Shown here in pieces: positions 2,146 to 3,638 of a stretch of 11,868 bases of DNA; the first letter of the stretch is position 1; every line of letters begins with the position of its first letter. The stretch comes from a virus. Taxonomy: Duplodnaviria; Heunggongvirae; Uroviricota; Caudoviricetes. Location of the stretch: positions 1-11,868 of IMG/VR virus record IMGVR_UViG_2711768053_000004; one strand, 5' to 3'. The notes below the pieces were generated by a model. The model saw only the letters and a program-made list of their open reading frames with translations. It ran no database searches and was not told the origin of the DNA. Both the position numbers and the translations under genes were made by a program.

Positions 2146-2198
2146 CAAAAAACCCGCCGAAGCGCTGAGGGGTCCCCATAAATCAGCGCTAAAGCGGG
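2146..2198 (-). terminator. Rho-independent terminator at the 3' end of the hok transcript
   Basis: On the minus-strand RNA: CCCGC-uuu-AGCGCUGA-[14-nt loop]-UCAGCGCU-ucg-GCGGG followed by UUUUUU. Plus-strand arms at 2153-2157/2194-2198 and 2161-2168/2183-2190, A-run at 2147-2152. Lies about 70 nt downstream of the hok stop. Confidence 0.55.
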
Positions 2199-2267
2199 TT
2201 AAGTGCGGGTGCATTGAGGATACCTGACAACTTAAAGAGTGGCGGGAATTGCTCCCCGCCGTAGCTC

Positions 2268-2420
2268 TTAACGTTTTTCAACTTCGTAGGCTAAATACGC
2301 TGAAAGCTCTGTGTTTCCCTGCCTGATGTGCAGCTCGCATAGCGAACCGCGAACCATCCAGACAAATATCAGAATGGTGATGCAAACCACCACCAGACAA
2401 AACACATAGCTCCTTCGCAT
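2268..2420 (-). CDS. hok: Hok/Gef-family type I toxin (50 aa, single transmembrane helix)
   Basis: Hand translation of the minus strand: MRRSYVFCLVVVCITILIFVWMVRGSLCELHIRQGNTELSAYLAYEVEKR. Carries the Hok signature (hydrophobic N-terminal helix, R-x-SLCE-x-R, AYE near the C-terminus). SD GGGGG lies 5 nt before the ATG. Below the 60-aa cutoff of the supplied ORF track. Confidence 0.8.
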   Translation of the reverse strand: MRRSYVFCLVVVCITILIFVWMVRGSLCELHIRQGNTELSAYLAYEVEKR

Positions 2421-2478
2421 TACAGCCCCCTGTTAGTTGATTTCTTACTGTTAAGAGGCTAATCTTTATGTGTCGCAT
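2278..2478 (-). CDS. mok: Mok-like overlapping reading frame (translational coupler for hok)
   Basis: 66-aa ORF in a different frame that starts 58 nt upstream of hok (ATG at 2476-2478, GAGG about 9 nt upstream) and overlaps nearly all of hok. This is the hok/mok arrangement known from plasmid R1 and chromosomal hok loci. Confidence 0.5.
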   Translation of the reverse strand: MRHIKISLLTVRNQLTGGCNAKELCVLSGGGLHHHSDICLDGSRFAMRAAHQAGKHRAFSVFSLRS

Positions 2479-2540
2479 ACAGAATGCCTCAGATTAATGT
2501 TAAGCGTCTTGCCGGACGCGTAATGTTAACTGGGGCTTTT
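2472..2540 (+). ncRNA. sok: Putative Sok-like antisense RNA (approximate bounds)
   Basis: Inferred from hok/mok architecture. A plus-strand promoter candidate, TTGATT (2437-2442) - 17 bp - TAATCT (2460-2465), would start an antisense transcript across the mok initiation region. A short hairpin GCGTC-ttgccg-GACGC sits at about 2503-2519. The -10 is weak and the 3' end is undefined. Confidence 0.3.
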
Positions 2541-2711
2541 CTCTATCTGCCGTTGGTGTTCATGCCCGAGGCAGATAGCCTCAAGCACCCGCAGCAATTC
2601 TACTTAACTCTCCTTTTCCCGCAAACCGTTTTTATCCCCAGCGGCAAATCGAATACACCACCAGCGCCACCGCCATCGCAATTCCTACCGTTGTGAATGC
2701 TTCAGGCCAGG

Positions 2712-3056
2712 TCATCGTAAAATATCCTCCGCGCTTATCAGTCCGTTCCGCTCCAGATAACTCATCGCCTTATCCGGTAATTTGCAGTCTGGCTTCGCTT
2801 TCCTCAGTTGCCAGGTTAACTGCTTTACCAGCATGGTTAACTCATCGACCAGACGCTGATATCCCACTGGTTTGTATTCATGCAATTTACCGGCTGGCTC
2901 TGCTGCCAGCGATACCAGTGCGATTTCCAGAACAGCAATATCCATCTTATATGTGCGGATGATGTCATGGTCGATTGTGCCCGGTATGCACAGTCTCTGT
3001 GCTTCAATAGTCTCCTCTGCGTGAGCTATTAACTGCTCTCTGGTAAAAGTCGTCAT
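2712..3056 (-). CDS. hypothetical phage protein (114 aa)
   Basis: ATG at 3054-3056 overlaps the TGA of the upstream HNH gene (ATGA overlap), indicating translational coupling. No family recognised. Confidence 0.6.
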
Positions 3057-3418
3057 GCCGTAGCCCCTTCTTGATATTTTTCAAACCAGAACACAACCGG
3101 ATCAGATTTCATTTCAACCAATCCCATACGAACCAGCGCTTTGCCTTTTCCGGACGCAAGGAATTCACGACGACCATCACTGATAATTCGCCGATAATCT
3201 TCCAGGCTACTGCAATGCTTGTGCAGGTTGCATGGGTGGCATGCCGGAACCATGTTGGATATATCGTCACGCTCCTGGTGAAGCATATTTCCAGCAAAAC
3301 GAATGACCGGTTTTACATGGTCTGCATGCCACTTTTCGCCAAGTTCGCAGCCGCAATAAGCACAGCGACCGCCGAACTTCATGCGCAGCTCTGCACGTTG
3401 TTTTTTCGTCAGTGCCAT
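3053..3418 (-). CDS. HNH endonuclease (121 aa)
   Basis: Motifs CAYCGC...WHADHVKP...N...CHPCNLHKH (CxxC / HxDH / N / H / CxxC). The ORF track starts at 3508, but the internal ATG at 3416-3418 has a good SD (AAGGAAA) and sits 2 nt after the stop of the upstream small ORF, so it is the preferred start. Confidence 0.75.
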
Positions 3419-3419
3419 A

Positions 3420-3638
3420 TCAGCTTTCCTTATACGGATTAATTTTATTGTGCAGTGTGTTGAACGACGCCCACACCACGTCGTTATACAATTCAATAAC
3501 TGGCTCAATTATTTTCCCGATTGTCCAGACAAAAATTAGCGGGGATGTCGGTATCATCAACACGATAAACAGAATGAGAAACAGAAATTCTGTTGTTCTA
3601 CTCTTTCGCGGATATTTTTTTCTAAATAATGTGACCAT
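3420..3638 (-). CDS. small predicted membrane protein (72 aa, one hydrophobic helix)
   Basis: ATG start at 3636-3638. Hydrophobic segment FLFLILFIVLMIPTSPLIFVWTIG. Ends 2 nt before the HNH start. Preceded by the GC hairpin at 3644-3659. Confidence 0.45.
   Translation of the reverse strand: MVTLFRKKYPRKSRTTEFLFLILFIVLMIPTSPLIFVWTIGKIIEPVIELYNDVVWASFNTLHNKINPYKES

What the first reader, a model, noticed from the sequence alone, without database searches (positions are those of the whole stretch)
2146..2640. hok/mok/sok-like type I toxin-antitoxin locus inside the prophage nin region
A 50-aa Hok-family toxin is fully overlapped by a 66-aa Mok-like frame. A structured terminator lies about 70 nt downstream, and a candidate antisense promoter faces the mok start from the other strand. 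A candidate hok promoter on the minus strand has its -10 TAGAAT at 2597-2602. The toxin gene falls below the ORF-track cutoff and is easy to miss. Whether the locus is active or decayed is not visible from sequence alone.
Basis: partly seen in the sequence, partly recalled or inferred. Interest (0 to 1): 0.5.

Follow-up and report, generated by a model that had tools for sequence, protein, structure and literature searches.

The report
Prophage hok/mok/sok toxin-antitoxin locus

Summary
The observation and the interpretation both hold. On the minus strand there is a 50-aa Hok toxin (2420->2268; Pfam HOK_GEF 70 bits, E 1e-19). It is overlapped by a 66-aa mok frame (2478->2278). The leader matches the Rfam hok/sok model at 93.7 bits against a cut-off of 59. 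The predicted 445-nt hok mRNA (2590->2146) folds far better than shuffles (z -9.4). Its 5' end GGGUGCUUGAGG pairs with CCUCAA(U)GCACCC about 48 nt past the hok stop, which is the family's tac/fbi lock. This pairing covaries across 13 distinct loci from Escherichia, Citrobacter, Enterobacter, Erwinia and Serratia. The antisense Sok gene (about 2470-2540, + strand) has its 3' 55 nt identical to the annotated sokW of phage 933W. [quoted passage not shown] The only mildly new points are these. The locus is a mosaic: a hokW/hokD-type leader and 3' end flank a hokA/pndA-like toxin cassette. This toxin allele is rare, in 11 of 5,426 complete E. coli genomes. It has an AGGGGG hok ribosome-binding site and a 31-nt palindrome in the terminator loop. 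Activity cannot be settled from sequence. Low interest.

The parts
2597..2624 (-). Predicted hok promoter: -35 TTGCGG (2624->2619), 16-nt spacer, -10 TAGAAT (2602->2597). Predicted transcription start at G2590.
   Evidence: Sequence read. The -10 sits 7 nt upstream of Rfam model position 1 and aligns with TAGAAT of IncI1 pnd, TATAAT of hokC and TAGGAT of hokB. It falls below the generic scan threshold.
2146..2590 (-). Predicted full-length hok mRNA, about 445 nt.
   Evidence: MFE -190.9 kcal/mol, z -9.35. The 5' and 3' ends pair in both the MFE and the centroid structure.
2579..2590 (-). tac element, GGGUGCUUGAGG, at the 5' end of the hok mRNA. It has three alternative partners: fbi, ucb, and the metastable partner at 2572->2562.
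2532..2540 (-). ucb / mok anti-SD box, AAAAGCCCC. It is the partner of tac in the processed mRNA.
   Evidence: Rfam consensus structure alignment. The conformer with tac/ucb forced lies only 2.7 kcal/mol above the MFE of the truncated mRNA, similar to R1, pnd and hokD-like relatives.
2487..2490 (-). mok Shine-Dalgarno sequence GAGG, 8 nt upstream of the mok ATG.
   Evidence: Sequence. Same arrangement as R1.
2278..2478 (-). mok reading frame, 66 codons. It overlaps hok codons 1-47.
   Evidence: Its length and sequence are not conserved among relatives, as expected for a frame that serves only translational coupling.
2455..2460 (-). dcb box AGCCUC. It pairs with the mok SD in the processed mRNA and overlaps the Sok -10 on the other strand.
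   Evidence: Rfam structure. Element definitions taken from PMC9841398.
2426..2430 (-). Putative hok ribosome-binding site GGGGG (AGGGGG), 5 nt upstream of the hok ATG. Salmonella, Citrobacter and other relatives have AGGAGG here.
2268..2420 (-). hok toxin gene, 50 aa: MRRSYVFCLVVVCITILIFVWMVRGSLCELHIRQGNTELSAYLAYEVEKR.
   Evidence: Pfam HOK_GEF at 70.4 bits and PHROG 251. The DNA is 100% identical to the CDS annotated WP_001585819.1 'Hok/Gef family protein'.
2241..2260 (-). GC-rich hairpin GGCGGGGAGCAAUUCCCGCC just after the hok stop. It is the predicted 3'-terminal protective stem-loop of the processed mRNA.
   Evidence: It is conserved in all relatives. Its role is taken from R1 mutagenesis in PMC9841398.
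2207..2219 (-). fbi element CCUCAA(U)GCACCC, complementary to tac.
   Evidence: Duplex of -21.5 kcal/mol at stop+48, matched or beaten by 1 of 200 shuffles. Covariation counted.
2147..2200 (-). Intrinsic terminator of the hok mRNA. Outer stem AACCCGC/GCGGGUU, inner stem AGCGCUGA/UCAGCGCU (a 31-nt palindromic insertion at about 2161-2191), then U6.
2437..2465 (+). Predicted Sok promoter: -35 TTGATT (2437-2442), 17-nt spacer, -10 TAATCT (2460-2465).
   Evidence: Same positions as the R1 promoter (TTGCGC / TATCCT) and the sokW promoter (TAACCT). The sokW promoter was verified by mutation in PMC8621323.
2470..2540 (+). Predicted Sok antisense RNA, about 71 nt. It has a 16-nt single-stranded 5' tail covering the mok start, then a long hairpin (2486-2536) and a U-tract.
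   Evidence: Aligns end to end with the annotated 71-nt sokW of 933W, with the 3' 55 nt identical. Fold -31.1 kcal/mol, z -4.45.

Best explanation
This is a structurally complete hok/mok/sok type I toxin-antitoxin module carried by a Rac/Qin-like lambdoid prophage. The mechanism below is inferred from the plasmid R1 paradigm. Each RNA element has been located here by homology and folding. None of the steps has been observed for this locus.

1. A weak constitutive promoter (-10 TAGAAT) starts a roughly 445-nt hok mRNA at G2590.
2. While the transcript is nascent, the 5' tac element folds onto the sequence just downstream (a metastable hairpin).
3. In the finished transcript, tac pairs with fbi (2219->2207). 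The mok ribosome-binding site is sequestered, so the mRNA is stable, untranslatable and blind to Sok.
4. Slow 3' exonucleolytic trimming removes the terminator and fbi, stopping at the GC-rich hairpin 2260->2241.
5. tac then pairs with ucb, which exposes the mok SD and start.
6. From here there are two outcomes. Either the abundant but unstable Sok RNA (+ strand, about 2470-2540) binds the mok start region and the duplex is cut by RNase III. Or, if Sok has decayed, ribosomes translate mok and, by coupling, hok.
7. The 50-aa Hok peptide inserts into the inner membrane and kills or lyses the cell.

The likely biological role is one of two. It may be addiction to the prophage. Alternatively, as shown for the related hokW-sokW of Sp5, it may help lysis and phage release after induction. 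hok is co-oriented with the early-right operon (O, P, nin, RusA).
For: **Toxin**
- Pfam HOK_GEF at 70.4 bits against a cut-off of 22.
- The family-invariant residues C13, T15, L27, E29 and E38 are all present.
- 58% identical to the IncI1 PndA-like toxin and 61% (over 36 aa) to HokA.

**Leader**
- Rfam RF01794 at 93.7 bits against a gathering score of 59, full model 1-157, ending exactly on the hok ATG.

**tac/fbi pairing**
- It forms in the MFE and the centroid of the 445-nt RNA, z -9.35.
- The same pairing is found 42-50 nt past the hok stop in 17 of the 20 loci examined. The exceptions are IS186-disrupted hokC, R1, whose best duplex starts at stop+24 in a different register, and a frameshifted Erwinia copy.
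- On 13 distinct rows, 99.2% of cells pair, against 39-59% when the 3' partner is slid by 1-3 columns. Four of 10 pairs show changes on both sides, for example UA->CG in pnd and GAGG/CCUC -> UGGA/UCCA in Erwinia and Serratia.

**Other conformers**
- The metastable 5' hairpin and the tac/ucb conformer are both available.

**Sok**
- The 3' 55 nt are identical to annotated sokW, and the promoter hexamers sit at homologous positions.
- sokW RNA was probed by northern blotting, and mutations in its -10 promoter element released HokW toxicity, in PMC8621323.

**No sign of decay**
- There is no IS insertion, frameshift or stop.
- The same toxin is found in at least three annotated E. coli chromosomes and six IMG/VR viral contigs.

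**Context**
-.
Against: - No expression or toxicity data exist for this allele.
- Both promoters fall below the generic sigma-70 scan threshold, which found 0 sites.
- The hok ribosome-binding site is AGGGGG where Salmonella, Citrobacter and other relatives have AGGAGG. This might weaken translation.
- The MFE of the modelled truncated mRNA shows the metastable hairpin rather than the tac/ucb stem. The tac/ucb form is 2.7 kcal/mol less stable.
- The terminator carries a 31-nt insertion of unknown effect on 3' processing.
- The introduction of the 2026 preprint cites earlier work in which chromosomal hokA, hokB and hokC loci did not mediate post-segregational killing.
- The 3' segments used for the covariation count were chosen as best duplex partners, which biases the count towards pairing.
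Confidence: 0.9

Rival explanations
1. The locus is structurally intact but physiologically silent or strongly attenuated: a domesticated or 'idling' hok copy. Hok is rarely or never made because of the AGGGGG ribosome-binding site, weak promoters, or a terminator insertion that slows 3' processing.
For: The AGGAGG->AGGGGG change is present in all copies that encode the window's exact toxin, and one 96%-identical viral copy has a longer G-run. The 31-nt palindrome lengthens the 3' tail past fbi to about 60 nt; in R1 about 40 nt follow fbi, read from the sequence. The generic scan found no promoters. Earlier work cited found that chromosomal hokA, hokB and hokC did not mediate post-segregational killing.
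Against: All RNA switch elements retain complementarity, including a matched 1-nt insertion in a second long-range helix: CUCUUAAC/GUUAAGAG here against CUCUUAC/GUAAGAG in hokD-like loci. The ORF is identical across independent genomes. GGGGG can still pair with the anti-SD through one G-U pair. In the preprint, 42 of 45 tested Hok homologues were toxic regardless of location.
Confidence: 0.25
2. Role-level rival. The module does not mainly serve prophage addiction. Instead it acts as an auxiliary lysis factor on induction (as hokW-sokW does in Sp5) or as an abortive-infection defence against other phages (as reported for R1 hok/sok against T4).
For: In Sp5, hokW-sokW assists MMC-induced lysis and roughly doubles phage release, with sokW RNA falling in a RecA-dependent way (PMC8621323). 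The window's leader and Sok body are 93% identical to hokW. hok is co-oriented with the early-right operon, so read-through after induction could collide with Sok transcription (inference).
Against: The toxin cassette here is different: the CDS is 59% identical to hokW at the DNA level. In 933W the locus lies in a different part of the phage genome. The preprint found no enrichment of hok near defence systems (section list).
Confidence: 0.4
3. The ORFs and hairpins are chance features of a non-coding spacer, and there is no toxin-antitoxin system.
For: None beyond the small size of the ORFs and the generic scans finding nothing specific.
Against: Pfam E 1e-19, Rfam E 1.6e-20, fold z -9.35, covariation of tac/fbi, and conservation in several genera.
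Confidence: 0.01

Closest known systems
hokW/mokW/sokW of Stx phage 933W / Sakai prophage Sp5 (GenBank AF125520 annotation; Takada et al. 2021, PMC8621323)
   Same: It is also carried by a lambdoid prophage. The promoter, tac, Sok body and mok SD region (window 2715->2479) are 91-93% identical. The 3' 55 nt of Sok are identical, and both share the 16-nt hairpin insertion. The fbi differs by one unpaired base. The same 27-aa micro-ORF lies upstream.
   Different: The toxin cassette (Sok -35, hok SD, hok CDS, 3' hairpin; 2450->2221) is unrelated at the allele level: 36-61% DNA identity and 35% protein identity in the alignment. About 8 of the 16 nt of the Sok 5' recognition tail differ. The window's locus lies in the nin region (pR operon) rather than next to the YgiW-like gene of 933W.
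hokD (relF) type loci of Qin-like prophages, in intact form as in E. coli PSS-15
   Same: Same position between small nin-type ORFs and DUF968/RusA. The leader is 92-96% identical and the fbi-to-terminator 5' arm is 100% identical.
   Different: The HokD toxin is 40% identical. Its hok SD is AAGGAGAAG and its terminator is simple. K-12 hokD itself lacks the leader altogether, because relBE lies directly upstream.
parB (hok/sok) of plasmid R1
   Same: All elements are present in the same order: promoter, tac, ucb, Sok-complementary hairpin, mok SD, dcb with the Sok -10, hok SD, hok, protective hairpin, fbi, terminator.
   Different: The toxin is 47% identical. DNA identity is 16-71% across the segments compared. 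tac/fbi is GGCGCUU/GAAGCGCC in R1. The window's mRNA is about 445 nt, whereas the R1 full-length mRNA is 398 nt (from my own knowledge of the R1 literature).
hokA (E. coli chromosome) and pndA (IncI1/IncB plasmids)
   Same: These are the closest named toxins. The HokA NCBIfam model is the best hit at 70 bits. The window's toxin is 61% identical to HokA over 36 aa and 58% to the IncI1 PndA-like toxin. Both share the FxWM(V/I)R(D/G)SLC core, and the region upstream of the hok start (GAAATCAAC..ACAGGAGGCUG) resembles hokA.
   Different: It scores below the HokA equivalog cut-off (70 against 89) and below the Hok-subfamily cut-off (62.4 against 73). The leader is not pnd-like, at 16% identity in segment B.

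Membership tests
hok/mok/sok type I toxin-antitoxin family (Pfam PF01848; Rfam RF01794) | Hok/Gef-family membrane toxin ORF of about 50 aa | tested here: met
   PF01848 at 70.4 bits against a cut-off of 22, E 9.6e-20, profile 3-42 of 42. Invariant C, T, L, E and E residues present.
hok/mok/sok type I toxin-antitoxin family (Pfam PF01848; Rfam RF01794) | mok reading frame that starts upstream with its own SD and overlaps most of hok in another frame | tested here: met
   66-codon ORF 2478->2278 with GAGG 8 nt upstream. It overlaps 143 of the 153 nt of hok.
hok/mok/sok type I toxin-antitoxin family (Pfam PF01848; Rfam RF01794) | Conserved leader RNA structure: tac stem, Sok-complementary hairpin, mok SD/dcb hairpin | tested here: met
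   RF01794 at 93.7 bits against a gathering score of 59, model positions 1-157 of 157.
hok/mok/sok type I toxin-antitoxin family (Pfam PF01848; Rfam RF01794) | Long-range 5'-3' pairing (tac/fbi) that locks the full-length mRNA | tested here: met
   12 bp with one bulge, -21.5 kcal/mol, matched by 1 of 200 shuffles. It forms in the MFE. 99.2% of cells are paired and 4 of 10 pairs are compensatory across 13 distinct loci.
hok/mok/sok type I toxin-antitoxin family (Pfam PF01848; Rfam RF01794) | Alternative tac partners: a metastable 5' hairpin, and tac/ucb in the processed mRNA | tested here: inconclusive
   Both pairings are possible. The MFE of the truncated RNA shows the metastable form, and the tac/ucb form is 2.7 kcal/mol higher. 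The figures are 0 for pnd, 1.2 for R1 (whose MFE already shows a tac/ucb-type stem), 1.4 for the Salmonella copy and 1.9 for the hokD-like locus. Thermodynamic prediction alone cannot settle this.
hok/mok/sok type I toxin-antitoxin family (Pfam PF01848; Rfam RF01794) | cis-antisense Sok gene with its own promoter and terminator, overlapping the mok start | tested here: met
   This holds at sequence level only. The -35, -10 and 71-nt RNA are collinear with annotated sokW, with the 3' 55 nt identical. Hairpin plus U-tract, z -4.45. Transcription is not testable here.
hok/mok/sok type I toxin-antitoxin family (Pfam PF01848; Rfam RF01794) | Toxicity of Hok, neutralisation by Sok, and killing after transcription stops | not testable with these tools
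   This needs wet-lab assays. In the preprint, 42 of 45 Hok homologues tested were toxic.
HokA equivalog (NCBIfam NF007290) | Score at or above the curated equivalog cut-off | tested here: not met
   70 bits against a cut-off of 89. The Hok subfamily model NF007279 gives 62.4 against 73. The toxin is therefore a Hok/Gef family member but not HokA proper.
hokW-sokW (Sp5/933W) orthologue | The same toxin and the same antitoxin recognition region | tested here: not met
   The leader is 93% identical, but the hok CDS is only 59% identical and the Sok 5' tail differs at about 8 of 16 positions.

The most novel reading that the evidence does not exclude
The locus is a product of cassette exchange inside the hok family. 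A hokA/pndA-type toxin cassette (window 2450->2221, 96% identical to a Salmonella copy that has a different leader) has been placed inside a hokW/hokD-type leader and 3' end. The breakpoints fall at the conserved RNA boxes: the dcb/Sok -10 box, and just 5' of fbi.

Because co-resident prophage hok loci would then share an identical Sok hairpin but differ in the 16-nt recognition tail and in the toxin, this shuffling could be a way for competing prophages to escape, or to exploit, each other's antitoxins. The conserved, unannotated 27-aa membrane micro-ORF immediately upstream might be a further functional partner.
Probability: 0.12. Interest if true: 0.4.

Novelty: already known. Interest (0 to 1): 0.12.

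Why it matters
It matters little beyond correct annotation. RefSeq annotates only the toxin ORF of this allele and leaves out mok and Sok, so the regulatory RNA genes go unrecorded. The locus marks a further prophage-borne hok variant that could affect prophage stability, lysis on induction, or cross-talk with other hok loci in the same cell. The mosaic structure is a small, clean example of modular recombination at conserved RNA elements. It could help anyone studying Sok specificity.

Tried and rejected
- **Generic promoter and terminator scan:** it found no promoter and only one terminator-like site, inside the hok CDS (2394->2373), against a chance expectation of 0.8. I rejected it as uninformative, because the family's experimentally known promoters have equally poor hexamers and the real terminator has a compound stem-loop.
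- **The search for related loci with an 8-sequence Hok alignment:** it failed because no stretch was conserved enough. I repeated it with the single protein.
- **Mislabelled helix:** I first labelled the helix AGCCUCUUAAC/GUUAAGAGCU as ucb/dcb. After reading PMC9841398 I corrected this. ucb is the AAAAGCCCC anti-SD box and dcb is AGCCUC. The helix across the hok stop is simply a second long-range helix predicted in the full-length fold.
- **Search for the exact peptide in the supplements of the 2026 Hok preprint:** no occurrence in the text held, so I cannot say which of its clusters this allele belongs to.
- **Is the 31-nt terminator insertion a mobile repeat?:** there is only one similar hairpin per genome, at the 3' end of a MurR/RpiR gene. 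It is not a dispersed element, and its origin is unresolved.
- **Is the 27-aa upstream ORF part of the hok module?:** it also occurs without hok downstream, so I rejected it as a hok component.
- **The + strand ORF 2484..2696 (70 aa), antisense to the leader:** it lies antisense to the leader/Sok region, so I treated it as an artefact and ran no family search on it.
Full report
**1. The observation**

- The ORF list gives a 50-aa ORF at 2268..2420 and a 66-aa ORF at 2278..2478 in another frame.
- The 50-aa product matches Pfam HOK_GEF at 70.4 bits (cut-off 22, E 9.6e-20) over almost the whole profile. It also matches PHROG 251, 'MokW-like host killing'.
- The 66-aa frame has no family, as expected for mok.
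- The only Rfam gathering-level hit in the window is RF01794 ('sok'). It covers 2590->2418 on the minus strand, scores 93.7 bits against 59, and spans model positions 1-157. The hit ends exactly on the hok ATG.

- mok stops 10 nt before the hok stop, so the overlap is 143 of 153 nt and not complete.
- The generic promoter and terminator scan finds none of the proposed sites.
- The -10 TAGAAT (2602->2597) is nevertheless present, 7 nt upstream of model position 1.
- The terminator is a compound hairpin 2200->2153 plus U6. It begins 68 nt after the hok stop.

**2. Anatomy of the RNA switch**

The predicted full-length mRNA (2590->2146, 445 nt) folds at -190.9 kcal/mol. Shuffles give -134.3 +/- 6.1, so z is -9.35.

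In both the MFE and the centroid, the first 12 nt (GGGUGCUUGAGG, tac) pair with CCUCAA(U)GCACCC at 2219->2207 (fbi).

I then looked for the same pairing in 20 hok loci. These came from K-12 (hokB, hokC), an R1-type IncFII plasmid, an IncI1 pnd locus, 933W hokW, a hokD-like prophage locus, nine genome contigs and several IMG/VR contigs.

- The best partner of the 5' end lies 42-50 nt past the hok stop in 17 of the 20 loci.
- The exceptions are IS186-disrupted hokC, R1 (best duplex from stop+24, in a different register) and a frameshifted Erwinia copy.
- The pairing covaries: GGGCGC/GCGCCC in pnd, GCCUGAGA/UCUCAUGGC in hokB, and GGGUGCUCUGGAUC/GAUCCAnnAGCACCC in Erwinia and Serratia.
- A formal count on 13 distinct rows gives 99.2% paired cells, against 39-59% when the partner is slid by 1-3 columns. 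Four of 10 pairs change on both sides, and 0 of 500 shuffles reach the observed covariation score.
- One caveat: the 3' segments were picked as best duplex partners, which favours pairing. Their constant position argues that they are the true fbi.

The other elements of the R1 model, as defined in PMC9841398, are also present:

- a metastable 5' hairpin, with tac pairing to 2572->2562, which is the MFE of the truncated RNA;
- the ucb/anti-SD box AAAAGCCCC at 2540->2532;
- the mok SD GAGG at 2490->2487;
- dcb AGCCUC at 2460->2455;
- a GC-rich hairpin at 2260->2241 after the hok stop. In R1 this protects the processed mRNA.

With tac/ucb forced, the processed RNA is 2.7 kcal/mol above its MFE. 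The corresponding figures for relatives are 0 for pnd, 1.2 for R1 (whose MFE already shows a tac/ucb-type stem), 1.4 for the Salmonella copy and 1.9 for the hokD-like locus.

**3. The antitoxin**

On the + strand, -35 TTGATT (2437-2442), a 17-nt spacer and -10 TAATCT (2460-2465) occupy the same positions as the R1 hexamers (TTGCGC/TATCCT) and the sokW -10 (TAACCT).

The 71-nt sokW annotated in 933W aligns end to end with window 2470-2540. The 3' 55 nt (hairpin and U-tract) are identical. The 16-nt 5' tail, which covers the mok start, differs at about half its positions. The RNA folds as a single-stranded tail plus one long hairpin, at -31.1 kcal/mol and z -4.45.

The hairpin carries a 16-nt insertion (2505-2520) relative to the Rfam consensus. 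All prophage-type leaders share this insertion.

In Sp5, sokW RNA was probed by northern blotting after mitomycin C treatment. Mutations in the sokW -10 promoter element released HokW toxicity (PMC8621323).

**4. Context**

The minus strand carries, in order:

- YdaS (cro-like) and YdaT;
- a DnaT-domain replication protein and a lambda-P-like protein;
- DUF977, Ead/Ea22, DUF4014 and an HNH protein;
- a 114-aa ORF and a 27-aa micro-ORF;
- hok/sok;
- two small PHROG families of unknown function;
- DUF968 and RusA.

A cI-like HTH repressor lies on the + strand.

**5. How common it is, and what is particular about it**

- Pieces of the 2100-2700 region match in 4,266 of 5,426 complete E. coli genomes. 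Only 6 genomes cover at least 80% of it, at up to 98.8% identity.
- The central cassette (2262-2480) is at least 95% identical in only 11 genomes. The next best hits are IncI1 pnd loci at 74.8%.
- The toxin is exactly RefSeq WP_001585819.1, 'Hok/Gef family protein'. It is also encoded identically in six IMG/VR contigs.
- Close relatives (80-96% identical toxin) occur in Salmonella, Citrobacter braakii and Enterobacter.

Segment-wise identities show a mosaic:

| Window segment | hokD-like prophage locus | 933W hokW | Salmonella copy |
|---|---|---|---|
| 2715->2451 | 92-96% | 85-93% | 45-75% |
| 2450->2221 | 23-68% | - | 93-96% |
| fbi to terminator 5' arm | 100% | - | - |

Three further peculiarities:

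- All copies that encode the identical toxin have AGGGGG where Salmonella, Citrobacter and other relatives have the hok SD AGGAGG.
- About half of the copies, including the window, carry a 31-nt palindrome inside the terminator loop.
- NCBIfam places the toxin nearest HokA, but below the equivalog cut-off: 70 against 89.

**6. Mechanism and role**

The best-supported explanation is the R1 mechanism transposed to these coordinates.

1. The full-length mRNA is inert because tac/fbi locks it.
2. Slow 3' trimming removes fbi.
3. The mRNA refolds to the tac/ucb form, exposing the mok start.
4. Either Sok binds and RNase III cleaves the duplex or, when the short-lived Sok is gone, mok and hok are translated in a coupled way and the cell suffers membrane damage.

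What is shown here: every sequence element exists and retains complementarity, and the key helix covaries across the family. What is inferred: transcription, processing, Sok instability and toxicity.

The biological role is open. The candidates are:

- prophage addiction;
- a lysis-assisting role on induction, as shown for hokW-sokW (deleting it halved phage release; PMC8621323);
- abortive infection.

I put about 0.9 on 'this is a hok/mok/sok module that works this way if expressed'. I put roughly 0.7 on it being functionally active rather than attenuated.

**7. Novelty**

hok/sok in a lambdoid phage has been annotated since the 933W genome record (AF125520). hokW-sokW has been characterised experimentally (PMC8621323). 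A 2026 preprint catalogues 44,248 Hok homologues, including 3,852 prophages and 2,501 phages that carry them. It reports enrichment in prophages and toxicity for 42 of 45 tested representatives (10.1101/2025.08.07.668861).

The exact toxin is already annotated in RefSeq. The finding is therefore a correct identification of something already known. The mosaic architecture and the allele-specific SD and terminator variants are minor additions.

Noticed in passing
window 2632-2715 (minus strand): There is a 27-aa hydrophobic micro-[30 protein letters not shown]. Its ATG overlaps the stop of the upstream 114-aa ORF (ATGA). It has no Pfam, NCBIfam or PHROG family. tblastn finds it in 90 phage records. 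In the seven copies read closely it is always 27 codons, always ATGA-coupled to the upstream gene (of Ea22, EaA or DUF551-neighbourhood type), with a conserved WP(E/D)A...CRWG motif and many synonymous changes. It occurs both with and without hok downstream. It was not annotated in the records inspected. It is probably a real small membrane-protein gene.
   Followed up: partly
window about 2161-2191 (minus strand), inside the hok terminator loop: A 31-nt palindromic insertion (UAGCGCUGAUUUAUGGGGACCCCUCAGCGCU) turns the simple AACCCGC-UUCG-GCGGGUU terminator of relatives into a two-tier hairpin. It is present in the window and six other loci (L001, L008, L023-L026) and absent from L012, L022 and L035, which carry the same toxin. 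A hairpin plus T-run that is about 87% similar lies at a single chromosomal site, 3' of a MurR/RpiR gene, in about 480 E. coli genomes. Its origin and its effect on 3' processing are unknown.
   Followed up: partly
window 2426-2431 (minus strand): The hok ribosome-binding site reads AGGGGG in the window and in the nine other loci examined that encode the identical toxin. Salmonella, Citrobacter and other relatives have AGGAGG, and one viral contig has a run of eight G. This could be an attenuating change or a slippage-prone G-run.
   Followed up: partly
window 2285-2288 (minus strand; Tyr45-Glu46 of Hok): A UACG motif (TAC GAA) sits at the conserved Tyr-Glu near the C-terminus. The 2026 Hok preprint points out that this context permits TadA A-to-I editing, which would recode Tyr to Cys, as is known for hokB.
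   Followed up: no
window 2221-2451 compared with 2451-2715 and 2192-2220: The hok locus has a mosaic structure. The toxin cassette is 93-96% identical to a Salmonella copy, while the leader and the fbi end are 92-100% identical to hokD-like prophage loci. The breakpoints lie at the dcb/Sok -10 box and just 5' of fbi.
   Followed up: yes
window 2450-2460 with 2263-2272 (minus strand): The full-length fold predicts a second long-range helix, AGCCUCUUAAC with GUUAAGAGCU, across the hok stop codon. Relative to hokD-like loci (CUCUUAC/GUAAGAG) both arms carry a matching 1-nt insertion.
   Followed up: partly
L016 (524-673 and 1105-1251), L017 (524-673 and 1109-1257), L019 (522-676 and 1000-1154): The Erwinia and Serratia contigs carry two hok leaders in tandem, about 480-585 nt apart. 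These look like tandemly duplicated hok/sok loci.
   Followed up: no
window 3053-3508 (minus strand): An HNH endonuclease-domain ORF (151 aa) sits among the nin-region small genes, next to DUF4014 and an Ead/Ea22-like gene.
   Followed up: no
L003 4993-5081 (phage 933W, minus strand): There is a gathering-level Rfam hit to sRNA-Xcc1 (RF02221, 69.1 bits) about 2.4 kb from hokW in 933W. There is no equivalent hit in the window.
   Followed up: no
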